NCBI GenBank assembly: GCA_035221665.1
Contig: CM069143.1
Coordinates: 42,036,001 to 42,100,000, forward strand
DNA from: Okamejei kenojei
Lineage: Eukaryota
Direction of reading: 5' to 3'
Length of the DNA: 64,000 bases
In this document: positions 831 to 59,735 of the stretch, one piece after another
Layout of the letters: the number at the start of each line of letters is the position of its first letter
Position numbering within the stretch: the stretch's first letter is position 1
Notes under the pieces: generated by a model
Databases searched by the model: none
What the model was told of the DNA's origin: nothing
Seen by the model: only the letters and a program-made list of their open reading frames with translations
Position numbers and translations under genes: made by a program

Positions 831-3800
831 ACCAGATCTGCTGCCTGAAGATACATTTGAGATAATATCCCCAGGTGCAAAAAAATGATGCTAATTCAAA
901 TGGAATGCGCTTATCAAGAGACTCAAAACAATCCAAGGTCGGTCTGGCTAGAATCTCCATGCAGACTAGAAAAACACTTTCTGAGTTCTGTACTCCTGGA
1001 GTATTGTGCGCTGTTTTGATCCCCAATGTTAGAGGCAGTTTGAAGAGATTCAACTGGTTAATTCTTTTGTTGAGAAAGTTGTTCTATAATGTTAAATGGC
1101 AGGGTAATGTAGAGGGGCCAGTTGGCCAATCAGGATGGACAGATGCATGGTCAAGATAACTATGGCAGTCTATGTTTTTATGATGGACATTGGTCACTAA
1201 CCTACAACTGCATTGTGGTGATTCAGTTTATGGAATTCCAAGTCATTTTCATAGTTCTTCTTGGCAGAGAAATCTAGAGCTTTTCACAAATTATAATTAT
1301 GGTGGAGCTAGTGCAGTTCAGATGCATGGGCAAGTTGTAGCTCCTATTGGTTGGGATTTGATAAGTTGTCTGATAAACTCTAACATTGACTTTTATGCAC
1401 CTGATTTTCAGTTGTCACTAATGTTTTGGAGCATGCTAATAAACACAAAAAAGATGACTCGGCGATCAATCTAACAAACGTCTGCCCCTTCCATGACACA
1501 AGAAGTGTATACATCCTTAGTTATGATATAATGTAACAGGTACCAACCGTTGGATGGGGTAAGGGTCTCGTGCTTGTCTCTCTGATGAAGCAGGGTTTTG
1601 GTTTTGACAAGAATGTGCTCCAAGGGTTTTGTCAGTAGAAGAACCCCATTGGAGAACCCCATAGAAGAACCCCATTTCCCATTCCATGGTAATTGCATAT
1701 TACCAGAGATTAAGTCTTGTCATTGGCTTGCATCTTTTCCCATCTTGCTACTGGCATTTGTCTCCCTGCAGGATGAAGGCTTGGCTTTTTCTGGGTTGGA
1801 GTAATAGTCCAACCTTCATCCAGAACTTTTGAGATTGCAAGATATGCAATGTTGACTTTAGCATATTGATTGTGAAAAATTGGGGCAAAGAATTTACAGG
1901 CATCTTGGATGGCCACAGTTTTATGCATAGTTGAGACACCTTCCCTGCTGAAACATCCAGATGGAAGACTAGGAAATTGGCTTTCATAGCCTGCAAGGTT
2001 TTCCATGAATAATGTCATGGAAGAAGGTTATTGATGTACATGAAAGTATGATGCACAAATATGTCATGTTTTACAGTACAGGTTTTCCTCAATTTACCAA
2101 ATTTCCTGAAGAACATTTATTTAAGTGAAATTTTACAAATCAGGTAGCCTGGACACAATGTAATATAAGCATTTTGGTACAGTGGCTGCAAAATACTCTG
2201 GGCAAAGTGTGGAGCACTAAATATTGCAATAAAACATAGATAAGTAAATCAAATATACTTTAAAAGTCAATGGTGCTGTAGTGAACATTTGTAAAATAAA
2301 ATGTTTGTAATTTGAGAAAAAATTACAGATCAGCATATGTATGTCTATCTTTCAATATATATGAGGTGACAGTAAGTATTGTTTCTTTGCCAAAGATTAT
2401 TTACATTTTTGTCATGGATTGTTACTTTATTTCAGGTCATTACATTATTAATTGCCCATTGCCATGTAACTTTTTCACCGTGAATAAATTTAAAGCATCC
2501 CAAGTCAATTTAAAGAGATTTTAAACTTAATAAACTACAAGTTGGTTTTGGTCAGTGTTTCATTCATCAGATCAGGTAACCTGATTGAGTTTAATTGTTT
2601 ATCATAAATTAAGCGGTAAAGAGCCAGTAGTCTAAAAAGATCTTATGATAATGTGGAATGCTGACCAAAGCTATGGTAATAGTCAAATTTAGCATTGGCA
2701 TGTTCATCTTATGAACAGTATCCTCAATAACAGTGCAGACAAGCAGCATGTTTGACTGGCCATGTGATGTCATCTGTGTGTGGGCAACTTGCCCCAGGCA
2801 GGAAGCAGCAGCCTTATTGCACACAGACTGCACCCATCTGCTGCACAGAGTGACAACATGCTGTTTGTAAACAGCACTTACAATGTTTCTGTGGTGCATC
2901 ATCAACTCAAACAATGGCAACATGGGGAAGGCAATCCATTTATTTCCTTTGGATTGAGGTAGATCAAATGCTTGTCAACATTCCAACGAGACACTCCAGA
3001 GACTTCTGCGAATGATCTACTCTGTTCATTATGCAAATTTTCCAGTCTATGTTGCATTAGTGCAAACACAATATGAGAAAGGACAGGTAAAGACCAGCTG
3101 GTCCATTAAGCCCACCCTTTATTTGGCATGCTGTAAATTCTACATTTCATCATCTCACTCCCCCTCACATCCACACTAAAATGTGCATCCCCAGGGTGAG
3201 ACAAAAGACAAAGAAAAGCCTTTAGGCCAACTTGGGGAAATTGCTCTGAAATTTCATCCCAATCCCAAAAGGCAATTGAGCTCCAGTAGTGACTGTGGGA
3301 GATAAAGATTCATCCATCTTCAATGTTTATAATGTTAGCCTGTTTCATTCAGCACCTTGAACAGTGTGTTCACTTGGATGTGAGGATCGGGAGATCAGTG
3401 ATTGATTTTTGGTCACAGAGTTGACAACTTCTTGCGTTCAAATCATTAGGCCAAGAAGGATATTAATCCCCCAACAGTCCAGTGCAGCACCTTGACCTCA
3501 AAACTGTTGGTGAGCATTAAACTGTTGGTGAGCATTCTTGTGCCCTAGCCTTTTGTTGAGTCAACTGACCCCAAAGAACATGTGGAATTTCAGCCTAAGC
3601 TCAGTAGTTGTAATCAGATGTTGGGTTACAGTGGATGTCAAGACCATATTTCAGCTGAAATACAGTCATTTTCTCCAAGGATTTTTCCTGCGTAAATTGA
3701 CATCCATACCACCGTAAATTGTTTCTAGTGAGCTAGAACATGAGGCAAGTGAGAGGAATATAGAGAGAATAAAATGAAGGGTTGGATTAGCATAAATGGG

Positions 3801-5964
3801 TATTAGATAGTCAGTCAGCACACAGTTGGTGGGCTAAAGCACCTGATTATGTCTTGTACAACTGATTCTATAAACCTAATATATATTCATATGATATACA
3901 AGCTGTTTCCTGAACACAAAACAATGTAGGAAATGAGGGCAATATGTAGACTAAACTCTATTGATGCTCAGAGTCTTTGCAGCCACCATCTATATGTCCA
4001 ATCCAGGAAATTGGACTTTATACATTCTTTGGTGTTGTGTTCCATGTTGTATAATGTAAACTGTTTGCTGAAGAACAGTATGGAGTCGACACAGGCAAAT
4101 CTAATACTAACTTGAAAATGTAAAGAGACAATATGTATATGACTACCGAATATGTATCTTCACATCTAGTAAGTGAATTCACATGGACAGTTAAATGTTG
4201 AATACATAGCCAAAAATGTGAACTCCAGAAGAATAGACTGCTGTCTAACTTAGCAATATGGATTTTACGTAGGAATTGCTGTTCACTTAGAATTATACAT
4301 TGTCAATCCAGACTATAAATACAAGTTTTGTGTATGGTTTGGGTAATAGCACTTATACATTAAAAAAAATTAAACAATACAGGAACAGTTAATTTAATGT
4401 TTATTCAATGTAGTACTTAATGGACTTCCAACACATGATTTGAATTCTGATTCTATATTTAGAGAGTAGGTGAAGTGTTGACAACAGGCACTCCACACAC
4501 TATTAAAGTGTTCACATGCCAGTCTAAGTTAGTATATAGGCTTTCTACCAATGGCTGCTTGTGTACAGTAAGGCTCAGAGTTATTGACTACTCAGCCTGT
4601 GACAAATTCACCAGCTAGGTTCTGTAAATGTACAATATTAATATAACATCTATGTCTGCAGTCTGGTAACTGCACATTATATGTGAAGGTACATTAACTT
4701 TCACGGATAGTAAATCATAAATGTAGTACATGATTAAAAACTATTCACATAACAATTTTTTAATTTATTTTTTGTATTTGAAATAAAGTACCTGAATAAA
4801 AACATGAACTTATATATAAAAATATTCTTACATATATGAAATATTGCAAATTTAAAATCAGTTAGTAAAATAACACAACCATCCTGTACAAGAACTCATT
4901 AAACCTTTATGAAACTCATTATTATTTTAGTGATATGAAGGAGCCACAATCTGATTGGTGCTTGATTCAAGGTCCTTCAGAGAATTAGATTTAGCCAATG
5001 ACATCAGAGTTTAAAACAAAAGCTCTCCACATGACTGTGTGAGCACTTTGTCTACAGGAAACATAATACTCCAATGAAGATTCATTGTGTCACCCTCAAC
5101 ATACTATATTTTAAGACAATCAGTCATCTGTCAACGTATCTAAAGATTCATGAAATTGGACGCAAGGCCTCTTGTTCAGGCAATCTAGACTGCAGGCACC
5201 ATAACCTTTTTGCTCTATGAAAGCTGTTACAAACAAAACTACATTGAAAAACTAATGGCACACTTGCCTCAATGTATTTATTCTTTAGAAAATAAAAGTG
5301 GCAGATAAATATTAAAATAAGATATGGCGTTTCATTGGAAACAACGCAGAAGGAAATTAACCACAAATAGTAATCCTTTAAGATTATGGGAAGAATTTGG
5401 TAATTAAAAATGCCATTCACATTTCCATGAACTGAAATGGGAGTGAGATAAGCTTTCAGAATAAGATATTCTTTTTATCACAATGTTTTTATTCTTACAT
5501 TTAAAAAGTGCCTTTAGCTCAGATTATTCAGGACCCACTTTGATACTGCTTGTAACAGGACCATCATCTGCCTAATCCTTTTACATAGTTTGTATAGCCT
5601 AATGCTTTCTATCCTACTCCACTGCACTTTTCACAAATCCATTTAACATATCAATTGACACAACATTTCTTGAATCATTTCTGACCAATGCATATAACTC
5701 CCATAACTGTATAATCTGACATGTTTAGATCAGGAGAAAAACTCATGCTGAACAAATCCTTCTAATCTTAGAAAAATGCCCTGTGATGCTATTTGAGGTA
5801 GTGCGAACAGTGGTTTGCTCACATTGTTTTGTAGAATTCCGGGCAATATTAATGTAGCCTATATCCTGTTTGTACAATACTTTTCTCCCACTCAAACTTG
5901 TTGGTTTACCATTTCAGGTAAATTAAATTTACATGCATACCTGCACACATATGCAAACTTATAC

Positions 5965-7087
5965 AAACTTAAAGCATACAGCATTAGGGGTTCAGTATTA
6001 ATGTGGATAGAGAACTGGCTGGCAAACAGGAAGCAAAGAGTAGGAGTAAACGGGTCCTTTTCACAATGGCAGGCAGTGACTAGTGGGGTACCGCAGGGCT
6101 CAGTGCTGGGACCCCAGCTATTTACAATATTTATTAATGATCTGGATGAGGGAATTAAAGGCAATATATCCAAGTTTGCGGATGACACTAAGCTGGGGGG
6201 CAGTGTTAGCTGTGAGGAGGATGCTAGGAGACCGCAAGGTGACTTGGATAGGCTGGGTGAGTGGGCAAATGTTTGGCAGATGCAGTATAATGTGGATAAA
6301 TGTGAGGTTATCCACTTTGGTGGCAAAAACAGGAAAGCAGACTATTATTTAAATGGTGGCCGATTAGGAAAAGGGGAGATGCAGTGAGACCTGGGTGTCA
6401 TGGTACACCAGTCATTGAAAGTAGGCATGCAGGTGCAGCAGGCAGTGAAAAAAGCGAATGGTATGTTAGCTTTCATAGCAAAAGGATTTGAGTATAGGAG
6501 CAGGGAGGTTCTACTTCAGTTGTACAGGGTCTTGGTGAGACCACACCTGGAGTATTGCGTACAGTTTTGGTCTCCAAATCTGAGGAAGGACATTATTGCC
6601 ATGGAGGGAGTGCAGAGAAGGTTCACCAGACTGATTCCTGGGATGTCAGGACTGTCTTATGAAGAAAGACTGGATAGACTTGGTTTATACTCTCTAGAAT
6701 TTAGGAGATTGAGAGGGGATCATATAGAAACTTACAAAATTCAGGAAGATTGTTCCCAATGTTGGGGAAGTCCAGGACAAGGGATCACAGCTTAAGGATA
6801 AGGGGGAAATCCTTTAAGACCGAGATGAGAAAGACTTTTTTCACACAGAGAGTGGTGAGTCTCTGGAACTCACTGCCACAGAGGGTAGTTGAGGCCAGTT
6901 CATTGGCTATATTTAAGAGGGAGTTAGATGTGGCCCTTGTGGCTAAGGGGATCAGAGGGTATAGAGAGAAGGCAGGTACGGGATACTGAGTTGGATGATC
7001 AGCCATGATCATATTGTATGGCGGTGCAGGCTCGAAGGGCCGAATGGCCTACTCCTGCACCTAATTTCTATGTTTCTATGTTTCTAT
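5965..7087 (+). mobile_element. 5'-truncated CR1-clade LINE (HER1-like), 3' half of ORF2 RT plus 3' UTR
   Basis: WIENWLANRKQRV, TSGVPQGSVLGPQLFTIFINDL, SKFADDTKL, LVRPHLEYCVQFWSP; one in-frame stop and a small deletion; ends in (TTTCTATG)n. Confidence 0.95.
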
Positions 7088-7289
7088 ATTTAGAATTGGT
7101 AAAGCTTAATATACATGCACCATTTGTTAATTTATTGTTAATAACCTTTGCATCTGTTCAAAAGTATTAAAAGTTAAATAATATTGAAACCAATGTTCAA
7201 AATTTCCAGAGAACTAGCAAGTAGACAGTTTTATAACCTAAAAAGAAAAATACAAATATTTCACAGGATTAGCTTTTCTCTCCTTCAGT

Positions 7290-8215
7290 TTATAATCAAA
7301 GGCATAGAGCTACTAAAACAACCCCTTTGGCTAAACTTGTCCATGCTGACTGGGATGCTCATCAATGCTAATACCATTTTGGGGCATTTCGCAGATATCC
7401 CTCTATTCCTTTCCTGTCCATGTAAAATGCTTTTTAACCTTGGGTGAACATACCTGTCTCTGGCAGTGTGTTCCATATATGCATGCATCATCCTCTGTAT
7501 GAAAAACCTGCCATCAGATCTTCTTTAAATATTTCCCCTCTCACTTTAAACCTATGTCCTCTAGTTTTAGACTCTATGACACTTGGTAATAGATCGATTA
7601 CCTACCCTATTTATGACCCTCATAATTGTATATACTTCTATAATGTCATTTTCTGGGAGCTATGAACTAGTACTCCAAGGTCCTTCAGTATATCAAAGTT
7701 TCTGAGGTCCCTACAGTTTAGTGTATATTTCTGGCAGGTATTAGATGACGCAAAATATTACACCTTACATTTATCTGGATTAAATTACATCTGCCACTCC
7801 TTTGCAGAAACTTTCCAGCTGATCGATGTTCCAGTGTATCTGTAGGTACCATCTTCGCTTTCTATTATCAGACCACTGATATTCTCATCCAAATCATTTG
7901 GATATCTGACATATAACAAAGGTCCCAGTACTAATCCCTGTGGTGCACCACCGGTTACAGACTTCCAGTTAGGAAAAACTACCGTCTCCCCGCCTATCAG
8001 CAAGCTAGCTTGGATCTAGTCTGCCAAAACACTTGGACCCCAATTGCCCCAACTCTCTGGATCAGCCTACCATGCAGGACCTTATCAAAAGCCTTGTTAA
8101 GGTCCATGTAAACCATATCTACCACCTTGTCATTGTCAATTTTCTTAGTACCTGCTTCAAAAACTCAATCAGATTTGTGAGGCAGCATTTCCCATGCACA
8201 AAACCATGCCAACAT
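7290..8215 (-). mobile_element. Old decayed CR1-clade LINE fragment(s)
   Basis: The minus strand gives WKSVTGGAPQGLVLGPLLYV..NDLDENISGLI (7785-8003), flanked by degenerate CR1 3'-UTR-like sequence. Confidence 0.75.
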
Positions 8216-31224: not shown

Positions 31225-32072
31225 AATGAATAGTGAAAGGCTTGGATAGATTGGATGTGGAGAGGATGTTTCCACTAGTGGGAGTGTCTAGGACTAGAGG
31301 TCAGAATTAAAGGAAGGAGATGAGGAGAAATCTCTTTAGTCAGATGAATTTGTGGAATACCCACAGAAGGCTGTGGAGGCCAAGTCAATGGATATTTTTA
31401 AAGCAGAGATAGATATATTCTTGGGTACACAAAAAGCTGGAGAAACTCAGCGGGTGCAGCAGCATCTAAGGAGCGAAGGAGATAGGCGACGTTTCGGGTC
31501 GAGACCCTTCTTCAGACTGGTCAGGGATCAGGGAAACGAGAGATATAGACGGTGATGTGGAGGGATAAGGAACAATGAATGAAAGATATGCAAAAAAGTA
31601 TCGATGATAAAGGGAACAAGCCATTGTAAGCTGTTTGTGGTGTGAAAATGAGAAGCTGGTGCGACTGGGGTGGGGGAGGAAGATAGAGATAGAGGGAATG
31701 CCAGGGCCCGAGGGCTGAGGGAGAGGTGGGAAGGGGAGGGAAGGGGAGGAGACAGCAAGGGTTAACAGAATTGAGAAAATTCAATGTTCAAGCCCAAAGG
31801 ATGCAGACTCCCCAAGCGGAATATGAGGTGCTGTTCCTCCAGCTTGCGGTGTTGCTCACTCTGGCCGTGGAGAAGGCCCAGGACCGAGAGGTCGGATGCG
31901 GTCCACTACAAACCCACTGGGGCCCTTGATATATTCTTGATTAGTACAGGTGTCAGGGGTCATGGGCAGGAGAATAGGGTTATGCGGAAGAGATAGATCA
32001 TCCGTGATTAAAGACGGAGTAGACGTTGGGCGGAATGGCCTAATTCTGCTCCTATCACGTATGACCTTATGA
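31225..32072 (+). mobile_element. CR1 LINE 3' end split by a Penelope insertion
   Basis: ggcttggatagattggatgtggagaggatgtttccactagtgggag...gatatattcttg | gatatattcttgattagtacaggtgtcaggggt...aatggcctaattctgctcct. Confidence 0.8.
31424..31927 (-). mobile_element. Penelope-like element fragment: GIY-YIG endonuclease C-terminus, 3' UTR and hammerhead motif; 12-bp TSD
   Basis: The minus strand gives SDLSVLGLLHGQSEQHRKLEEQHLIFRLGSLHPLGLNIEFSQFC* and CTGAAGAAGGGTCTCGACCCGAAACGTC. TSD GATATATTCTTG at 31412-31423 and 31928-31939. Confidence 0.85.
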
Positions 32073-34924: not shown

Positions 34925-35152
34925 GTAAAACACAAACTGCTGTAGTAACTCAGTGGGTCAGGCAGCAGCATCTGTGGAGGGAATGGACAGGCAATATTTC
35001 GGGTCAGAATTCTTTGTCAGTCTGAAGAAAGGTCCCGAGCCCAAATGTCGCCCATCCATTGCCTACACAGATGCTGCTGCCTGACCTGCTGAGTTACTCC
35101 AGCACTTTTATCTTTTGCTTAAGATTCCAGCATCTGTGGGTCCTTGTATCTC
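34925..35152. mobile_element. Palindromic (head-to-head) Penelope-derived repeat
   Basis: Arms gtaactcagtgggtcaggcagcagcatctgtg and cacagatgctgctgcctgacctgctgagttac around a centre tcagtctgaagaaagg. Confidence 0.75.
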
Positions 35153-35528
35153 TAGCAGGATTACTTAGGTAGAATCAGTGGGGAGCATCAGGAAGTTCTT
35201 TTAATTTTAAATATCTGTGTGAATTTTGCCACTAATTTCAAATAGAATCTAAAGCCACTTAATATGTTGTTGTGATTTATTTATGCACAAAGGTGCACAG
35301 AATAGTAAGATTAAACGAGAACTTACCAGTTCGAAGTTTGATCGTTATTTTATGAGGAGTAACGATGAGGGATTACGTGAAGAAGCCCCGCCTGGCGCTG
35401 GAACGGCATACTTCAAAGCAGCGGCATGAAAAACACAGAACATAATAGCCGGAGTAAGATAGTAAGGCTCAACATAGATTTAGAACTACCAGATGATCAT
35501 TTATTTTATGAGGGTCGGGAGTGGAGGG

Positions 35529-35641
35529 CACGTAATCCCTCATCGTTACTCCTCATAAAATAACGATCAAACTTCGAACTGGTAAGTTCTCGTTTAATCT
35601 TACTATTTTACTTCGGAGTCACGTGAGTGACTACGTGAAGA
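35529..35641. repeat. Internal complementary region (ICR) of the DIRS element
   Basis: A 79-bp perfect inverted copy of the left terminus fused at ATT to a 37-bp perfect inverted copy of the right terminus. Confidence 0.92.
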
Positions 35642-35949
35642 GTTTGAAGCTTCTGTGTTTTTCATGTCGTAGAATTTATTCCATACGACAGTCCGGCTCA
35701 TTCAACACAGTAACGAGCGAATAACACATTTTTCCCCAAACATTGCCAAAAGTTATGTGATAAATTATTTCACATTATAAAGAATAAAAGTAATGCCCTT
35801 TCCATTGAAAGGCAAGTTTATCACAAAATATCAATTTTGATGGTATGTATATTTTGATGGTATATTTTGATGGTATGAACAAAGCAACAATTATAGAGAA
35901 CCCAACACTCCGTGTCCAAACCTGACACCATGACTGGTTCCTTTTATTT

Positions 35950-36820
35950 AACATTTAATTTACACCCTCCTGCGGCCTTGCATCTTTGCTCGAGCGGCTC
36001 ATCCTGTGCCATTCCTGTGAATGTATCTACCTCATTAACAGAGTGATTTTCCACATTTCAGTGTCTAGTTCCACTGAGTGTTATTTAATTTCTAACCATC
36101 TAGAATACATTCCTCTAGAACCATCAGTTTTTACTGAAACCTAATGTGGTTATTTGTGTGTAATAAGTAGTGCTATCTCATCACCAGAGACTCTTACCTA
36201 CTTCAACATATTTTATCAATGTTCACACACACACACAACTTAAGGCCGACAGGATATGCTTATAGGTTTACCTTGGTTTCAGCTCTTCTTGGTGTGCTTT
36301 GTTTGGTAAATTCATAAACATATATGATAATGTAATCTGTATCCACATGCAATTATAACGTAATATTTGCAATGTTTGCACTCTTATGTTGATACTAAAG
36401 TCATCAGCATTATTACTTTTAATGTTAACTTTTTTGAATCATTGATAGAATTTAGAGTCCATTGCCTAAGGCAATTCAGGACTATTGATCTCCTGACTTA
36501 TGTATTACAATTTTGAACACATTATATATACATATATATATTTATATTTATATCTACATATATATCCCTTTCCATATCGGGATATTACGAATGCACCCGA
36601 TAACTTCTTGGTTAGTATATTGTCCGTTAATAGGACGATAACACTCTGAGCCCTATTATTGGCTCTATCAATTAGATACTCAGAAAAATGCAATCCACAA
36701 GGAACTCGCATATAACTAATATGACAAAATAACTTTACTGTATACACAGACTTCCAATTTCTTATAACAAAATATTGTTTTTTAAAACTTATTTCTGCAA
36801 ATTGCAGGTATAACACTTTT
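35950..36820 (-). pseudogene. Decayed tyrosine recombinase ORF of the DIRS element
   Basis: Motif remnants in DIRS YR order with many stops and frameshifts; includes track ORF 36505-36816. Confidence 0.55.
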
Positions 36821-36977
36821 TTTATACATAATTATTTTATTGTTATGTTGTTATATTAGTTAAACATTCCTAGACTTCTTTGACCATCAAACTGTTGTAA
36901 TGGTCTGGTCAACCTGCAGATAGTCAAATTCATATTTTCATGTCATGGATGCCTTTGTACAACAATAAATCACTGCA

Positions 36978-37074
36978 GAGTTACACAAAAACTGAAGAAC
37001 CCAGCGGGTGCAGCAGCATCCAAAGAGTGAAGGAGACAGGCGACGCCCCGGGTCGAGACCCCTCCTCAGACTTT
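36978..37074 (-). mobile_element. Short Penelope-derived hammerhead repeat nested in the DIRS element, with clustered T>C changes
   Basis: Aligns to 31426-31518; TSD AATAAAT(C/T)ACTGCA at 36964-36977 and 37075-37088. Confidence 0.85.
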
Positions 37075-38490
37075 AATAAATTACTGCAACTATGAATCAT
37101 CACAAGTGGTTCAACATCACTCAATATTTATGAAAACCATGAAGGATCCGTTTTGGGCCACCAAAATGCCTCTGGCAGTATCCTGCTACATTTTCATCAG
37201 ACACTGTCCTATCAAACAAAAATGAGGAACATAAAAGAACATCTTTCCTCATGTAATTGAAAGAAAAGCATCCATCTTTCCTGTTCTTGGTTTACCCACG
37301 AGAACATTTGAAAGATCGGTGATTTAATCTGTATGTAACCAGATTAATCGTAAGTAATCCATATTAATGACAATGTGTTTTCCTCCCTTAATTTGTTGTC
37401 TCCGATACCATTGTCTCTTCCTTAGAGATATGCCACATCTGTTTACTCAGATAATCCCATGATTATTATTTTACTTATCTTGTGTGTTTTAACATATGCC
37501 ACAGCCGTGGTATTGTTCACCTTGATATGACATGGACACTTCCATAATAGAACAATCGATAATTAATCCATAACTCCTTATACTTCAATAATTAATACAA
37601 ATGTTTGGAGAAATTTCTTAGGACAATCCATTTATGCTCACCTGGTATTATTGTCCGTAGTCCCAACAAGAGACGTATCAATTATTTTTATATGAATAGA
37701 TAATATTCTTATCTTTACCCAAATATTCACAGAAGCTGTCCATCATCTGTAACACTTGCTTCAGTTTGCAACAGCTGCTAAGCTTATAGTTGAAGCAGCT
37801 TGTGAACTTTTTTTTTTTTTTTTCATTACTTTAATAATGATAACATATCATTTGATATTTGCATAAGCCTCTCACAAAGGCATACATATTCTTATAAGCT
37901 TCTGTATTCCTTCTTTTGGAGCTTTATTTACTCCTTTCCTAATGGAGAAACAAAGTATGTCAACAAAACAATGAGACATATTTGTATCATGGAACAATTT
38001 TCCCCCTCTTATGGTGCTGAATTACTCCTAAATTCAGAATAGTAATTTATGAATATTTTATTAATGCCTAAGCATACGCTTTATGTGATGGGTCAGGTCC
38101 TTGCCTGCCAACAGGTTTGTAATTGCAGCACTAATTTGCAGCTGACTCTTTATAACCTTCCAATTTAAATGTGATCAAGATAACCCATGACCATGTCCTC
38201 ATTAGTGCAAGTGCTGATCTTTTTATCAGCACAATTGTTCTTCCAGTATTCTGTTTAACAGCCTTGAACTGGTTTTAATCCTTTAGACAATGTTTTAACT
38301 TGCACAGCTTGACCCATTTTAATTAATTTCAAGCACCTGTAATATTGATTAACAATTTGTTAATAACAACTGTATTTCAATGTTCAAGATGTTTCCATTT
38401 TAATAAAATGTTCTTACACTGTGAAAGTGTATACAAAATGATGTTTTGTATGGTTTATACCATCAAATCTTTACACTGAGGTAATTTTAT

Positions 38491-38493
<3 letters not shown>

Positions 38494-38533
<40 letters not shown>
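38494..38533. repeat. (TA)n microsatellite inside the DIRS body
   Basis: About 20 perfect TA units. Confidence 0.95.
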
Positions 38534-38535
<2 letters not shown>

Positions 38536-40771
38536 GTACCCATTCTTTATTGGAATTACTTTTGGATGCAAACCTAAAATCAATTTTTAAGGTTTTCTTA
38601 TGCAGGTGAACCAATCCTTTCTTAGTTATATTAAATTAATGATCATGATACACCTGTAATCCCCCACAATTGGAGATTTAATGAACTTATTTTATAACAA
38701 GTTGTTTGCACCTCTTCAACGTACTTCAAGCCTTCTTTTTCCAATTATATGGGTTTGGATAAGGTTATGTTGGATTATACCATATTTTCTGCCTTTGTTT
38801 TGATCCATTATCAAATCTTTCATTGGATCATAGTTTTTCCCCCAAAGTTTAAAGATCAGTAGTCTGTTCTTTTGTAATCAATATTTTTGATTTATCATAA
38901 GGCAGGTTTTATTCCATAATAATCAGGAGTTTAATATAACCTGATTTGTAATGATCTGCAAATCTAGAGTGCAGATTTGGTAAATTAATATTATATATTT
39001 CTTCCCATTGAGCTCCACAAACTGATGGCAATTTATTTTATTTTAAATGTATTGGTTATTTGCACAATATTTTATTTGTTTTCCATTGAATGGAAATGCC
39101 ATGCACATGCACCAGTTTGAAATACTTTTAAAATCGTATTTCATTATATCTCATCTAATTGAGACATGGATATCATAACCGGATTCACCGTTGATATCTT
39201 TATAAACTTAAAAGTTTTATCATATTCTGCTGTTTCACCATAACAGCTTTGGTGAGGCCAATTAATTTTTTTTTTCCATATTTACTTTTCATGGCCTCAC
39301 TCATACATTCAGGTATCAAACCTAGTACACTTCTATATACATTTTGTGCTGAAGTGTACTTAAATAAAACATAAAAAGTTTTATTATTATTCTGCTGTTT
39401 TAATCATAACAGCTTTAGTGAGAGACCAATTAATTTTGGTTTCCGTGGTTATTTTCCTTGGCCTCACTTCTTATTCAGGTGTTGTACTTACACCTGTATA
39501 TATATAGTGTATATATATTACTGGTGCTGTGGTGGGTACTTCATGACCAGCCACCACTATCGGTGCATTTTTAGGGTCAGTTTTCCATTTTGCTGCCCTT
39601 GTTACTCCTGAGTTTTTCCTCAAGGAGACTACCTTCAAATATATCTGAGGTAGATAGTCCCACCATATTTCATCATATATATTAATATGTGAACCCCCTT
39701 TAGGGTAGGTTAGGGAATGTTTTTGGGCCATTTAACCCTTTTTGGCTTGAATTCTTTATTTACTTTATTTTTATTTTTTGGAATCTTTTTTCCATTATTT
39801 TTCCAAGCCATTAAACTTTTTTAGTCTGAAGACCTTTTATTAAATTTTTTAAATTATGGCCTTTCTGACTTTATAAAATTCCCCCCCCCCCCCCCTGCCA
39901 AAAGTTTGTGGAGCGACTAAAAAATCTTTCTAACGTAATTGTAACGGTCACCAGTATCGGAACCGGCTCCGTAATTAATCTCCCGTCCCGATCGCTGGGT
40001 ATTCCCCCGGGACGTTCTTTTTTAAACTCCGTTGTTTTATACAGAGTATTTTTGTTCTATTTTAACTTTTATTTATTTTTTGTTTTTAAATTCATTTTAA
40101 CACCTGGTTCAATGCACCAGGCACGGAGTTTCCAGACCCTAAAAGTTTTTCAACTGCACTTACCTGCCGGTTCCGTACCTACCGCTTTCGAGGAGCTAGC
40201 CTCTGCAGCTCTTGCTTCTGCCGTCAGCGTCGACGTAATGCCGTTCCAGCGCCAGGCGGGGCTTCTTCACGTAGTCACTCACGTGACTCCGAAGTAAAAT
40301 TGGCATTGAAGTGTTACTCTATTTTTATTCCAAATGCTTAGAGTATATACATCAGGTTTAAATAAAGACAAACAGTTTGCACAAAGAAATTAGACATAGT
40401 AGAATCCCAACAGCGGCATAAAGACCATGCCTGCCCCACCATTTCAGCAAGGAACAACAAAGACTTGATTTGTCCATCTACGCTTCATGCTGCCCCGAGA
40501 AGGCCACCAGCATAATCAAGGATCAGTCTCATTAGTCACTTCCTCTTATCCCCTCTCCTATCAATCAAGAGGTACAGATGTTTGAAAACGCATTCAGGGA
40601 CAGTTTCTTCCCAGATGTTATCAGCAAATGAATAGCCCTCTCATCAGCTTGAGTGCACTCCTGGTCTCCCATTTACCTCATTGGAGACCTTTAACCTATC
40701 TTAAATCGGACTTTATTGGACTTCAATGTTATATCTAACACTAAATGTTGTACCCTTTATCCTTTATCTCC

Positions 40772-41740
40772 CCAAGTGCCAGCATAACAACCTGGCTCTC
40801 AATATCAGTAAAACCAATGAACTGATTGGGGACTTTGGAAGCGGAAGGATGAGGACTCACAATCCTGATTATATCAATGAGACAATAGTGGAGAGATTCA
40901 AAAACTTCAAATTCCTGGGCGTGCATTTTCCAAAGATCTTTCCTGGACCCAGCACACTGATGCAATTAGAAAATAAAGCACATCAACACCACTACTTCCT
41001 GAGAAGGTTAAGGAAATTCAGTATGTCAAAGAGAATTCACCTGAACTTCTACAGGTGTACAGTAGAGAGCATACTGGCTGGCTGTATCGTGGCCTGGTTT
41101 GGCAACTTGAACATCCAGGAGCGGAAAAGACTGCAAAAAATTGTGAACACTGCCCAGTCCATCATCAGCTCTGACCTCCCCACCATCGAACCGATTTATC
41201 AAAATCGCTGCCTCAAAAAGGCAGCCAGCATCATCAGAGGCCCACACTATCCTGGCCACACACTAATTTCGCCACTGTCATCGGGAAGAAAGTACAGAAG
41301 TCTGAAAACTGTAACGTCCAGGTTCAGGTACAGCTTCTTCCCTACAGCCATCAGGCTATTAAACACTACAGCCTCAAATAAGCTGATATGTACGCACTGA
41401 ACTTTTTTTCTCTCTCGTTTATCATATTGTATACAGTGTACTACTGTATGTTTACATATTCTATTGTGCTTCAGCAATTAAAAATTTCATTGTTCTATCT
41501 GGGACATATGACAATAAAACACGAGGGTACACAAAAAGCTGGAGAAACTCAGCGGGTGCAGCAGCATCTAAGGAGCGAAGGAGATAGGCGACATTTCGGG
41601 TCGAGACCCTTCTTCACTCCTTCGCTCCTTAGATGCTGCTGCACCCGCTGAGTTTCTCCAGCTTTTTGTGTACCCTCGATTCTCCAGCATCTGCAGTTCC
41701 TTCTTTAAAAAAATGACAATAAAACACTCTTGACTCTTGC
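40772..41740 (+). mobile_element. 5'-truncated Rex1/Babar-like LINE (ORF2 C-terminus and 3' UTR)
   Basis: HNNLALNISKTNELIGDF, FKFLG, YFLRRLRKF, NFYRCTVESIL, RCLKKA, RFRYSFFPTAIRLLN. Confidence 0.9.
41523..41712. mobile_element. Young fold-back Penelope-derived insert with 15-bp TSD
   Basis: 62-bp perfect inverted arms at 41522-41583 and 41617-41678; TSD ATGACAATAAAACAC at 41508-41522 and 41713-41727. Confidence 0.88.
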
Positions 41741-45999: not shown

Positions 46000-48900
46000 C
46001 TAACTATTTTACATAACGTCGAGTTGGCGGTATTGACAATCGCCCACTTCTCGTGCGAGTCGTATTTCCAACACGTTCTGTGTTGTATTTCTGTTGTGTG
46101 AGTGTGGCTTGGCACGCTGCGAGCAGGTTCCCCCACCACATTACCTTGTGATGCGGCCTGTGATTGTTCTCTTGAGTCTGGGAGACTTGCTCCGTCTGGG
46201 AGAGGGGCTCCTCCGTCTGGGAGAGTTTTCGTGCTCTTTTGCTGCGTGTTGCCAGGGCATGGCTCAGCTGCTTCGTGCGTAGGTCATATGTCTTTCCTGT
46301 TTCTGCGGTAATCAGTAACACTCGGTGTCGAAATGGAGCAGCTCCGAGGGACCAGGTTTTCTCGTGCAATCTGGCCATGTTGCCACTCGGTTGGTTTGGC
46401 ACCAAACCACACCTGTTGTTGTCGCTCCAGGCACGGCAGCGGCTCGACGCTTGCCTTCTTATTGAAGTGTGCTGCCTGTTTTTCTTGCCGGACGGCTAGT
46501 TGCGGTTTGCACACAGCGCTCCACCTGCCCATTGCTCTGTGGATATATGGGACTTGCAGTGACATGGCCAAATTCCCATTGATCCTTGAACTTGCGAAAC
46601 TCAACACAGTCAAATTGTCTCACGTTGTCAGTCATCACCAAGTCAGGAATGCCATTCTGGGCAAACGTGCCCTTCATCTCTCGTATCACCGAATGTGACA
46701 TCATGTCTGGCAGTTGCGCTATTTCTGGGTACTTGTAGTAATAGTTCACTACAAGTAAATGGTCAACTCCATCCAGATGGAAAATATCTGCCCCGACTTT
46801 AGATCAAGGTCTGCTGGGGATGAAGTGCGGTTGTAGCGGCTCGCTTGCTTGTGCTTTCCTTGTCGCCTGACATATCGAGCAAGTTCCCACTGTGTCACCG
46901 ATCTGTGCATTCATTCCTGGCCACACAAATAAATTGCGGGCTCGTTGTTTCAGTTTCACTAAAACGTGTTCAGCCTCTGCAGGCGCCTGCTTTGGGGGAC
47001 TACGATTCGGTTTTCACTTAAGACTAAACCATCTACTTCAACCAGCTCGTCATGGTATGCATGAAATGGAATCAAGTCTGAGGGTAGACCACGCCTGTTA
47101 CTAGGCCAACCCTTTCTTATGTACTCGCACAGCAGTGTTAGGGTTTGATCTTTTTCTGTTTCAGCTTTGAACTGCGCAAGGCGCTCGTCTGACATGTGTA
47201 GTATGGCCTACTGCATGTATCACGGTTGGCAGTGTGATGTGCTCTTCCGCAAGTGTGTTTGCACTGGGCAGCTGGCTCAGGGCATCAGGGACAAACGTTT
47301 CACGTCCCGGCTTCCACCGTATCTCCAGGTCATACCGTAGCAGGTGCATTCGCAAGTGCTGGAATCTGGGGCTTGTGATCAGTAAGGATTTCTTTGCGCT
47401 GACCAACAATGAAGTCATGGAACTTTCTGCATGCGTACAATATGGAGCACAGCTCCTTCTCTATAGTCGCATAGTTGCGCTCGGCCAGGTTCACACGTCG
47501 TGATGCGTAGGCAACAGGTCTCTCGTCTTGCATTAGGACCGCTCCAAATCCACTGTTGGAAGCGTCTGTTGCAATTGAAACGGGCGCGTTCACATCGTAC
47601 AATTTGAGTACGGGTGGCGATGTGAGAAGACATTTCAGCTTGTCTACTGCATGTCTGTGCTTCTGCTCAAAATGCCACGCTACACCCTTTTCTGTTAGCT
47701 GTCTAAGTGGGGCGGTGATCTCCGAAAGGTTCGGAATAATCGTGGCCATTTATGTCACCATCCCCAAGAACATTTGCACTTCAGCCTTGTTTGTCGGGCA
47801 TGGCATTTGCCGCACACTGCTGACACGAGATGTGCTTGGTGAAACGCCTGCTTGTGAGATGTCGTGTCCCACATGTTCAATCTCGTTTGAGCGCATTACC
47901 GATTTTCTAGGATTGAGCTTTAGGCCGGACTCTTTCACAGGCGCGAGTAGGGCTTTCACCCTTGTGTCATGCTGGGCTGCCATCTCTCCCCAAACGAGAA
48001 TGTCGTCAATGACTATCTCCACCCCTTCTAAATCACCAAACTCTTCCTGCATCGCCCGCTGCCAAATCTCACTTGCGGATGAGATTCCAAATGGAAGCAC
48101 GAGGTATCGGTATCTCCCAAAGGGAGTATTAAATGTGGTCAGGCGCAAGCTGGTGTCGCTCACTGGGAACTGCCAGTACCCACTTGTAGCGTCAAATTTC
48201 GAGAACCATTTTGCCTTTGGCATGCGGGCTGCAATGTTCTCGATCGTCGGCATCAGAAATGCTCCCTGCGAATGGCCGCATTGAGGTCACGCGGGTCAAG
48301 GCATATGCGGACTTCGCCATTAGGCTTGCTAACAACAGTCACTGAATTCACCCAATCCGTCGGTTCGCTCACGGGCTTTATGACTCCCAAGCTTTCCATG
48401 CGCTCTAATTCGGCTTTGACCTTATCCCTGAGCTTATAGGGGATAGTGCGGGGAGGGGGTGGTTTGCTTAGGTTGCACGTTCTCTTGCAGTGCTATGTTG
48501 TACTCATGTTTTTATAACCTTCCCAGCCCTTGGAAAATCTTGCAGTTTTCCTCACTGATTATCACAGTGTTTGATGAGCTCGCCTCATTTTGCACAAGAT
48601 GCCCTTACTTCTCACACGTCAGTCTCCCAAATATGGGTTTCACATCCCACTTCACTATTTGAAACACAACACTATATTCCTTCTTACCTAATTTAACGTT
48701 CCCCTTTGCCTGTCCCTGAGGCTTCATTGTATGTCCAGAGTATTACCTTCGTGTTCATTAAGGCAAGACCAGCCTTTCTGAACAAGTTCTCGGCAGGATG
48801 TCAACTTGAGCTCCAGAGTCAAGTTTCAACTCAATGCCCACATTGTTAATGCTGCACAGCTGTCCCCATTCACACGTCAAATCAATCACGGTGTCAATCA

Positions 48901-49844
48901 CGGTGTCAATCACGGCGTCAATCACGGTGTCAATCACGGTGTCAATCACGGCGTCAATGTAGAATACATCAAAGTCGTCGTTCACTGGCTCAGGCAGCGG
49001 TGAAGTGGACATCTGGAACTCAATGTCCCGGACGTCACGGCTCCTGTCCCCGGCCTTTTGTCTGATTAGCCCATCATGTTGTCGGGAACGTGGTTGGCTG
49101 TTGGGTGGTCTATTTACCGGGCAGTCGGGGGATCTGGAAAAATGTCCGATTTCTCCGCAGGTGTGACATCTCATGTACTGAGCGGAGCAGTAGTTGGTTT
49201 TATGCACGTGGGTGCATCATTACCATAATTACGGATTTCTGTGTGTGGTTGTCTGGGTCGCGAATCCCTGTCTCGGCCCCATGGCCGACTGGCACTGTCC
49301 CGTTTCAAGTAATCAACTGTCTCTTCAGTGGCGATGGCAGTTGGGTCGATCTGTTTCGCGTGCTCGGTTGATGCTTTGGCGATCATACGCATGTCACTGC
49401 GTTAAGTCATCGCATTGGAGAAGTTTCTCCTCGAGCGGCTGGCTGGTGATGCCACAGAATATTCTGTCTTGAAGCAACGAGTATGCAGACTGTCAAATCC
49501 GCAATCATTAGCTTAAGACTTCAGTGCAGTCAGGTAGCTGGAGAAGGTCTCCCCTCGCCGCTGATTATGTGTATTAAAGATGTATCTTGTGACAGTTAAG
49601 TTCTTTTTTAGTTCACAGTACTTCTGGAACTTCTTCTTCAGCGGTTGTATTTTGTCACATTCCTCCGGGGCGAACTGAAAGGTCTCATAAATCTGCAGAG
49701 CGGCCGGCCCCGCCTCGTGGAGCAATGTTGCACACAGAATCCTATGCTTACTCGTCAGCTCTGTCGCCATCTTGTACAGTCCTTATAATTCTTGGCTAAG
49801 TTCCCTTGCATGGAGAATGGTCCCGGTGGCTTGAGTCCTGCCAT
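46000..49844 (-). pseudogene. Frameshifted gag-pol of the Gypsy element
   Basis: MAGLKPPGPF start; zinc knuckle CHTCGEIGHFSRSPDC; PR LDSGAQ; RT FDATSGYWQ, LPFGISSA, IDDILV; RNase H TDAS, YASR, YATIEKE; IN GIPDLVMTDN, YPQSNGQVER. Confidence 0.92.
48882..48958. repeat. 12-bp tandem repeat x6.4 (TCAATCACGGYG)
   Basis: Read directly; encodes (IDTV/IDAV)n on the - strand between gag and PR. Confidence 0.95.
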
Positions 49845-59524: not shown

Positions 59525-59735
59525 CAAGGCAACTTTAATTAGGCAAGGCAACTTTAATTAGGCAAGGCAACTTTCCAAACCAAAGACAACACAGCTTTAG
59601 CATTTCCAAACCAAAGGCAACACAGCTTTAGCATTTCCAAACCAAAGGCAACACAGCTTTAGCATTTCCAAACCAAAGGCAACACAGCTTTAGCATTTCC
59701 AAACCAAAGGCAACACAGCTTTAGCATTTCCAAAC
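59525..59735. repeat. Adjacent 19-bp (x2.6) and 31-bp (x5.3) minisatellites
   Basis: CAAGGCAACTTTAATTAGG at 59525-59574; TTTCCAAACCAAAGGCAACACAGCTTTAGCA at 59572-59735. Confidence 0.95.

What the first reader, a model, noticed from the sequence alone, without database searches (positions are those of the whole stretch)
36964..37088. Probable genomic fossil of ADAR A-to-I hyper-edited RNA: a hammerhead repeat with clustered A>G changes inside the DIRS element
Seen: aligned by eye to the sister copy at 31426-31518, this ~92-bp insert has 11 substitutions and 2 single-base gaps. Eight of the substitutions are T>C on +, i.e. A>G on the - strand, which is the sense strand of both the ribozyme repeat and the host DIRS. 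This runs against the AT-ward decay of the surrounding DNA. In both GAAG contexts only the second A changed, UAG and UAU sites changed, and the GAC and GAU As did not; two of the eight changes are at 5'-G sites. The changes turn the core GAAA into GGGG and CUGAAGAA into CUGAGGAG. Established: ADAR disfavours a 5' G and inosine is copied as G by reverse transcriptase. Inference: this repeat exists in both orientations and as fold-backs, so it forms dsRNA. It was edited in the germline and fixed by reverse transcription, either its own or that of the DIRS RNA. Killing the ribozyme would also let a full-length DIRS transcript avoid self-cleavage.
Basis: partly seen in the sequence, partly recalled or inferred. 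Interest (0 to 1): 0.85.

Follow-up and report, generated by a model that had tools for sequence, protein, structure and literature searches.

The report
RNA-editing scars inherited by retrotransposon families
A 97-base transposon fragment inside a second transposon carries one-stranded A-to-G changes, shared by hundreds of genomic copies and mirrored in a sister family, most likely because the RNA-editing enzyme ADAR altered the transposon RNA in the germline and reverse transcription wrote those edits into DNA more than once.

Summary
Observation confirmed: 8 T>C among 11 substitutions against the sister copy. T is the ancestral state of this Penelope-type terminal repeat (36,119 matches; 98 of the first 100 all-T). 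It is neither an assembly error nor one locus: 418 DIRS-like copies carry the insert, 499 lack it. Filled copies form one clade; its earliest branches have 5 of the changes, and 3 more, plus one in the target duplication, were likely gained later. A second DIRS family (1,365 matches) holds the fragment antisense and shows A>G on its own sense strand (13 sites against 1). Three fold-back loci carry 20-28 A>G each. A 5' G is avoided (9/79 against 86/138). ADAR editing fixed by reverse transcription is likely (0.85); the enzyme and its duplex partner are not shown. Ribozyme killing as a purpose is unsupported. Against: a matched control removes any excess of double changes genome-wide, and the DIRS terminal hairpin shows no edits. 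The scan noted a similar L1 copy in another genome.

The parts
36978..37074 (-). Inserted 97-bp fragment of a Penelope-like 3' terminal repeat (pLTR) with a minimal-hammerhead-like motif, sense to the host element
   Evidence: the empty site fixes the boundaries
36964..36977 (.). Left copy of the 14-bp target-site duplication; T>C at 36971 only in the window's subfamily
   Evidence: empty-site sequence; 36971 is C in 43 and T in 46 of 92 sampled filled copies
37075..37088 (.). Right copy of the target-site duplication, equal to the empty site
37021..37065 (-). Five founder A>G changes (37021, 37046, 37047, 37062, 37065), present in the earliest-branching filled copies
   Evidence: C in 91, 90, 92, 57 and 92 of 92 copies; 37062 is T in the largest subfamily
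37001..37048 (-). Three A>G changes inferred to be gained later and repeatedly (37001, 37037, 37048)
   Evidence: 5, 5 and 4 parsimony steps against a mean of 0.76 for 905 flank Ts; 0 of 884 flank Ts changed to C on the stem of the window's subfamily
37040..37071 (-). Minimal-hammerhead-like core: C3 at 37069, N7 at 37065, A9 at 37063, helix II 37061-37050, G12 at 37049, A13/A14/A15.1 at 37048-37046 (now G), C17 at 37042
   Evidence: read from the sequence against PMC4209133; helix II folds in the sister copy; no Rfam hit; activity untested
35301..40300 (-). Host element DIRS-A: 5-kb DIRS1-like element with decayed coding region
   Evidence: terminal and internal complementary repeats; no stop-free frame over 157 aa in the 2.7-kb part examined in 30 empty copies; weak translated matches to DIRS-B
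40238..40300 (-). Left inverted terminal repeat of DIRS-A
   Evidence: 89% complementary to 35347-35409
35529..35641 (-). Internal complementary region: 37 nt matching the left end and 79 nt matching the right end, both 100%
   Evidence: layout as in PMC7192593 (passages)
35301..35409 (-). Right inverted terminal repeat of DIRS-A; no excess of A>G among copies
31423..31905 (-). Unedited sister copy: 3' end of a Penelope-like element, pLTR plus the end of a GIY-YIG-type endonuclease frame (31762-31905)
   Evidence: 79% identical over 34 aa to a frame whose Atlas neighbours carry GIY-YIG
41522..41678 (.). Unedited fold-back copy of the same repeat, 62-nt perfect arms

Best explanation
The insert is a fragment of a Penelope-like terminal repeat whose adenosines were likely deaminated by ADAR while it was double-stranded RNA in the germline, and the inosines were likely copied as G by reverse transcription into heritable DNA. 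Shown: the fragment entered one DIRS-A copy with a 14-bp target duplication, that lineage amplified to several hundred copies, and all sampled descendants carry A>G on the DIRS sense strand in ADAR-favoured contexts. Inferred: five edits date from the insertion or the first DIRS cycle, and further edits were added on DIRS RNA in later cycles, so the window's 8 (+1) changes are the sum of at least two rounds. Inferred: the pairing partner was an antisense copy of the repeat (a flanking inverted copy in a read-through transcript, antisense Penelope RNA, or DIRS-B RNA). Loss of the hammerhead core is most likely a side effect.
For: Ancestral T: 98 of the first 100 of 36,119 matches. Mirror test: DIRS-A (repeat sense) has 8 distinct T>C sites and 0 A>G in 14 copies; DIRS-B (repeat antisense, 1,365 matches) has 13 A>G sites and 1 T>C in 34 copies; Fisher p 2.8e-5; 11 of the 13 sites appear in the 30 copies not chosen for being edited. 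Confinement: 0 T>C at 884 flank Ts on the window subfamily's stem against 3 of 13 remaining insert Ts, p 2.4e-6; 3 of 13 against 14 of 905 sites changed in 10 or more copies. Independent loci: L190 has 13 and 7 A>G in the two arms of a fold-back on one strand and none in the tandem neighbour copy; L192 has 28 in 200 columns, L193 26 in 203. All five founder sites are among the seven edited in the sense arm of L190. Pooled 5' neighbour: U 20/27, A 50/67, C 16/44, G 9/79, p 7e-14 for G against the rest, matching U=A>C>G (PMC3113232 abstract and opening). Penelope RNA is a major ADAR target in lizard and Xenopus tropicalis, and hyper-editing is abundant in elephant shark (passages).
Against: No RNA-level or enzyme evidence: only assembled contigs exist, and the two putative RNA runs are guesses. 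The insert has no long partner inside DIRS-A. The perfect 79-bp hairpin at the DIRS-A 3' end shows no A>G excess in 30 copies (0 and 2 T>C against 2 and 2 A>G). The control pattern with two fixed A>G at GAC sites gave 47 matches against 16 for the test pattern, so double changes are not in excess genome-wide; only further changes at free sites are (11/70 against 8/329, counts read by eye and control imperfectly matched). The window subfamily's stem also has 2 G>A and 2 C>T in the insert, above flank rate (p about 0.001 with an estimated denominator). In L192 and L193 only one arm is edited. The fold-back loci were found by searching for A>G, and pooled sites are not fully independent. The order of the later gains rests on weakly supported basal nodes (0.70-0.96), and L236 suggests that this segment can be replaced by recombination.
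Confidence: 0.85

Rival explanations
1. One editing event only: the founder already had all eight changes, and T states in other subfamilies are C>T reversions or gene conversion from the tens of thousands of unedited repeat copies.
For: C>T runs about 2.6 times T>C in these copies. 37062 is T in the largest subfamily, most simply one reversion. L236 in DIRS-B looks converted. Basal nodes are weakly supported.
Against: The earliest branches (L171, L166) have T at all three sites at once, interleaved with retained C sites, which needs several tiny tracts. L099 and L168 have an extra T>C at 37072. DIRS-B lineages carry different A>G sets.
Confidence: 0.15
2. DNA-level error-prone synthesis of the polymerase-eta type, which also favours A>G after A or T (recalled, not from a call), made the clusters.
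For: Same 5' neighbour bias. Extra G>A and C>T on the window subfamily's stem. One-arm-only changes in L192 and L193.
Against: 28 A>G against 3 other substitutions in L192 and 26 against 2 in L193, with no A>T or A>C in those arms. Both arms changed on one strand in L190 while the adjacent copy is clean. The strand follows the host RNA in two families.
Confidence: 0.05
3. Reverse-transcriptase misincorporation with an A>G bias, unrelated to dsRNA.
For: DIRS-A flanks show a mild sense-strand A>G excess (304/931 against 194/790 variable sites) without neighbour bias.
Against: The excess is about 1.3- to 2-fold and context-free, whereas the insert has over half its As changed and avoids 5' G; flanks on the same branch have none.
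Confidence: 0.04
4. The edits were selected because they kill a hammerhead that would cleave the DIRS RNA.
For: All 92 sampled filled copies have the A14 change (37047) and no clearly unedited filled copy was found (1 of 426 with T at 37065, a copy one base short).
Against: Non-core sites are as universal, so a founder effect suffices. The antisense insert of DIRS-B is edited as well. A single minimal hammerhead did not cleave in vitro. Only about 2 bp of helix I can form.
Confidence: 0.12

Closest known systems
ADAR hyper-editing of repeat-derived dsRNA (PMC5625713, PMC10636886; passages read)
   Same: Dense A>G on one strand, 5' G depleted, inverted repeats; Penelope named as a top target in lizard and X. 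tropicalis.
   Different: Those are RNA-versus-genome differences. Here the changes are in genomic DNA, inherited and amplified to hundreds of copies.
APOBEC DNA editing of retroelements fixed in vertebrate genomes (PMC4866542, PMC2873906; passages read)
   Same: Deaminase scars on retroelements fixed by reintegration, recognised by strand bias, direction from the majority state and sequence context.
   Different: Those are G>A from C deamination of cDNA, mainly in LTR elements; PMC4866542 has no mention of ADAR in its main text. Here the change is A>G, limited to a pairing segment.
A>G hypermutated retroviral proviruses attributed to dsRNA deaminase (recalled, no call)
   Same: Edited RNA copied into integrated DNA.
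   Different: Single somatic or cultured-cell events in viruses, not germline transposon families with stepwise build-up.
Minimal hammerheads in Penelope-like pLTRs (PMC4209133; passages read)
   Same: CUGA-N-GA and GAAA core, bulge before helix II, palindromic helix III, location in the pLTR.
   Different: Here a lone truncated copy inside another element, with the GAAA core changed; cleavage untested.
DIRS1-like tyrosine-recombinase retrotransposons (PMC7192593; passages read)
   Same: Inverted terminal repeats plus an internal region complementary to both ends.
   Different: DIRS-A and DIRS-B are decayed and apparently non-autonomous; no intact helper was located.

Membership tests
ADAR A-to-I hyper-editing | Cluster dominated by A>G on one strand | tested here: met
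   8 of 11 in the window; 28 of 31, 26 of 28 and 20 of 24 in three other loci
ADAR A-to-I hyper-editing | Direction from A to G, on the RNA strand | tested here: met
   majority state; mirror strands in DIRS-A and DIRS-B; the RNA strand itself is inferred from element layout
ADAR A-to-I hyper-editing | 5' neighbour U=A>C>G | tested here: met
   U 20/27, A 50/67, C 16/44, G 9/79
ADAR A-to-I hyper-editing | Confined to double-stranded RNA | tested here: inconclusive
   met at fold-back L190; no partner inside DIRS-A; DIRS terminal hairpin unedited; one arm only at L192 and L193
ADAR A-to-I hyper-editing | Inosine or A>G in RNA but not in matched DNA; ADAR dependence | not testable with these tools
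   only assembled contigs, RNA status guessed
DIRS1-like retrotransposon (host) | Inverted terminal repeats and internal complementary region | tested here: met
   DIRS-A; DIRS-B, L201
DIRS1-like retrotransposon (host) | Tyrosine recombinase and RT/RNase H coding | tested here: inconclusive
   a 235-aa DIRS-B frame resembles tyrosine recombinases in the Atlas (0.94-0.97) but has no Pfam hit; DIRS-A frames are decayed; RT not tested
Penelope-like element (source of the insert) | GIY-YIG endonuclease end followed by a terminal repeat | tested here: met
   Pfam gave no hit; the RT was not tested
Minimal hammerhead ribozyme | Conserved core and helix II in the unedited repeat | tested here: inconclusive
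   core letters and helix II present; helix I about 2 bp; no Rfam match
Minimal hammerhead ribozyme | Self-cleavage | not testable with these tools
   needs an in vitro assay

The most novel reading that the evidence does not exclude
ADAR is a recurrent, heritable mutagen of germline retrotransposons: two DIRS families with the same termini carry one Penelope fragment in opposite orientations, their RNAs pair with each other during mobilisation, each is edited on its own strand, and every cycle writes new edits into the genome, leaving a dated record of germline ADAR activity.
Probability: 0.25. Interest if true: 0.88.

Novelty: new variant of a known kind. Interest (0 to 1): 0.74.

Why it matters
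RNA editing is normally treated as non-heritable. These families appear to show edits passing into the germline genome and building up over successive retrotransposition cycles, an ADAR counterpart to the known APOBEC scars. The two orientations form a natural control, and about 2,000 copies make it possible to test site preference, timing and whether ADAR restricts or merely marks retroelements. It also warns that A>G clusters in repeats can be genomic, which affects editing calls from RNA alone. Six literature searches plus one broad one found no report of ADAR edits fixed in Penelope or DIRS families; I saw listings only for most hits, and the library lacks most subscription papers.

Tried and rejected
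Rfam: no hammerhead match, four chance hairpin hits at 41543-41658. DNA search with the sister repeat returned nothing because common words are skipped. Pfam PF05869 search for an autonomous helper: 0 matches. First tree was distorted by non-homologous flanks and was replaced, which dropped L170 as too short; its haplotype labels were partly mis-parsed. Count of double T>C copies as evidence: rejected after the control (16 against 47); one of the 16 is a DIRS-A copy. Assembly error, a common outside subfamily, and strand-symmetric GC-biased conversion: rejected. Editing of the DIRS terminal hairpin: not seen. ADAR context in DIRS flanks: not seen. Seven junction matches with A at repeat position 59 (six with a DIRS-B 5' end, one truncated) scatter through the tree and look like reversions, not unedited ancestors. 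Putative RNA runs X6 and X8 hold contigs like the edited core at depth about 3,000-7,500 where DIRS flanks have about 100-300, and more variant contigs at 37048 (22 and 52) than DNA runs (11 and 8): a weak hint of live editing only, as the runs may be DNA and contig depth is no measure of level. Pfam scan of two frames: no hits. Whether an unedited source copy shared by the two families survives was left open.

Full report
Observation. The insert differs from the sister copy at 31426 by 11 substitutions and 2 gaps in 93 columns; 8 are T>C on +. On the minus strand these are A>G with 5' neighbours U 2/2, A 4/4, C 0/2, G 2/6.

What the repeat is. A degenerate 34-base pattern has 36,119 matches in the 2.76-Gb genome. 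Of the first 100 listed, 98 have T at all seven T positions, one has a single T>C and one is the DIRS insert. T is therefore ancestral. In the window the sister copy continues into a frame (31762-31905, minus) that is 79% identical over 34 aa to a frame whose Atlas neighbours carry GIY-YIG. The repeat is thus the 3' terminal repeat of a Penelope-like element, where minimal hammerheads are described (PMC4209133, passages). Rfam does not detect it. The repeat content recalls a cartilaginous fish; that is recalled and not shown.

What the host is. 35301-40300 has a left terminal repeat (40238-40300), a right one (35301-35409) and an internal region (35529-35641) complementary to both ends, the DIRS-1 layout (PMC7192593, passages), which sets the minus strand as sense. 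Coding is decayed. I call it DIRS-A. 499 copies have the empty site and 418 the filled site under the same exact flanks; a junction pattern gives 627. The empty site defines a 14-bp target duplication, and the left duplicate in the window has a ninth T>C (36971).

Not an error, not an outside subfamily. The 30 closest paralogues carry the same changes apart from scattered private ones. The exact edited 30-mer occurs 42 times; 30 were viewed and lie in DIRS-A (29 directly, L042 being the place of L025), 7 more coincide with places, and 5 were not viewed. Short-read contigs of two samples carry the variants.

Stepwise history. In a tree from flanks only (122 copies; the sample is enriched for the window's subfamily), the 92 filled copies form one clade with support 1.0. 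The earliest branches carry five changes (37021, 37046, 37047, 37062, 37065). Positions 37001, 37037 and 37048 need 5, 5 and 4 steps against a mean of 0.76 for flank Ts. On the stem of the window's subfamily 0 of 884 flank Ts changed to C, against 3 of 13 remaining insert Ts and one in the duplication. Only 1 of 426 junction matches was listed with T at 37065, a copy one base short. Caveats: basal supports are 0.70-0.96, the largest subfamily has T at 37062, and the same stem has 2 G>A and 2 C>T in the insert, which I cannot explain.

The mirror family. A search for A>G on the other strand of the repeat gave 11 places. Four belong to a second family, DIRS-B, with the same termini, 4.3 kb in L201, 1,365 junction matches and a frame resembling tyrosine recombinases (no Pfam hit). 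It carries the fragment antisense near its 5' end. In 34 copies (30 first-listed, 4 chosen as edited) there are 13 distinct A>G sites and 1 T>C site; in 14 DIRS-A copies 8 T>C and 0 A>G; p 2.8e-5. The changed strand follows the host element, not the repeat. The two inserts share a one-base deletion (0 of 29 ordinary copies show it at that place, 33 of 34 DIRS-B copies do) and two non-standard end bases, suggesting one origin; neither carries the other's edits. DIRS-B lineages differ in their A>G sets. It also has T>G at one site in 13 copies and C>T at several.

Independent fold-backs. L190 (same place as L174) has 13 and 7 A>G in the two arms of a hairpin on one strand, none in the tandem copy beside it, and background levels in the 1.2-kb body. 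L192 and L193 have 28 and 26 A>G, but in one arm only. L176 and L177, paralogues, show T>C in two oppositely oriented copies. Pooled 5' neighbours are U 20/27, A 50/67, C 16/44, G 9/79, matching U=A>C>G (PMC3113232, abstract and opening). These loci were found by searching for the change, so they show existence and not frequency.

Results against. The control pattern gave 47 matches against 16 for the test pattern, so double changes are background; only further changes cluster (11/70 against 8/329). The perfect 79-bp hairpin of DIRS-A is not edited in 30 copies; it may be purged or rebuilt during replication, as the DIRS-1 transcript lacks most of the terminal repeats, but that is inference. 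No long partner for the insert lies within DIRS-A. There is no usable RNA evidence.

Mechanism. Shown: insertion, amplification, strand, context and confinement. Inferred: ADAR as enzyme, germline RNA as substrate, fixation by Penelope or DIRS reverse transcription, at least two rounds, and a partner supplied by flanking inverted copies, antisense Penelope RNA or DIRS-B RNA. Whether the five founder edits arose on the inserting RNA or in the first DIRS cycle cannot be told. Ribozyme killing: the GAAA changes would break the core, but 37065 is N7 and 37062 the bulge, non-core sites are as universal, the antisense copy is edited too, and a lone minimal hammerhead did not cleave in vitro.

Comparison and novelty. 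ADAR editing of Penelope RNA is known (passages), and APOBEC scars fixed in genomes are known (passages). My searches found no report of ADAR edits fixed and accumulating in retrotransposon families; supplements were not read. This scan noted an A>G hypermutated L1 copy in another genome (e1-8045548), which I did not test. Verdict: real, likely ADAR-derived, a new variant of a known kind; interest 0.74.

Noticed in passing
L191, L198-L200, L208-L244 (for example G000:C9:17803780-17808100): DIRS-B, a second decayed DIRS family with the same termini, 1,365 junction matches, carrying the pLTR fragment antisense plus a short sense tail and its own target duplication of about 14 bp.
   Followed up: partly
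L192:1434-1741 and L193:1488-2035 (as oriented): Fold-back Penelope copies with only the 5', antisense arm heavily A>G and the sense arm clean; may record a template jump from an unedited sense RNA to an edited antisense RNA.
   Followed up: partly
window 35660-38380: DIRS-A flanks show a mild excess of A>G on the sense strand in every copy group (1.3- to 2-fold) without neighbour bias; possibly reverse-transcriptase error.
   Followed up: partly
window 36978-37074: The window's subfamily also gained G>A at 36979 and 36995 and C>T at 37028 and 37074 in the insert, above the flank rate; unexplained.
   Followed up: no
L236 (G000:C1:78418800-78418913): DIRS-B copy nested among deletion-bearing copies but lacking the deletion and carrying different A>G changes; likely recombination with another Penelope copy.
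   Followed up: no
window 35301-40300: A 5-kb element with decayed frames and 30-35% GC in its interior has still amplified to about 900 or more copies at 95-97% identity; no autonomous helper was located.
   Followed up: partly
window 41522-41678 and 34934-35108: Two fold-back pLTR copies flank DIRS-A within 1.3 kb and 0.2 kb; the young one is unedited.
   Followed up: no
window 59572-59735 and 48870-48965: Tandem arrays of 31-nt and 12-nt units.
   Followed up: no
window 40705-41397, + strand: 231-aa stop-free frame that looks like the end of a LINE-type reverse transcriptase (recalled, not tested).
   Followed up: no
L196 and L197 (G000:C30:10948611 and 11095457): Near-identical pair 147 kb apart in opposite orientation with several A>G in a Penelope copy; probably a segmental duplication.
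   Followed up: no
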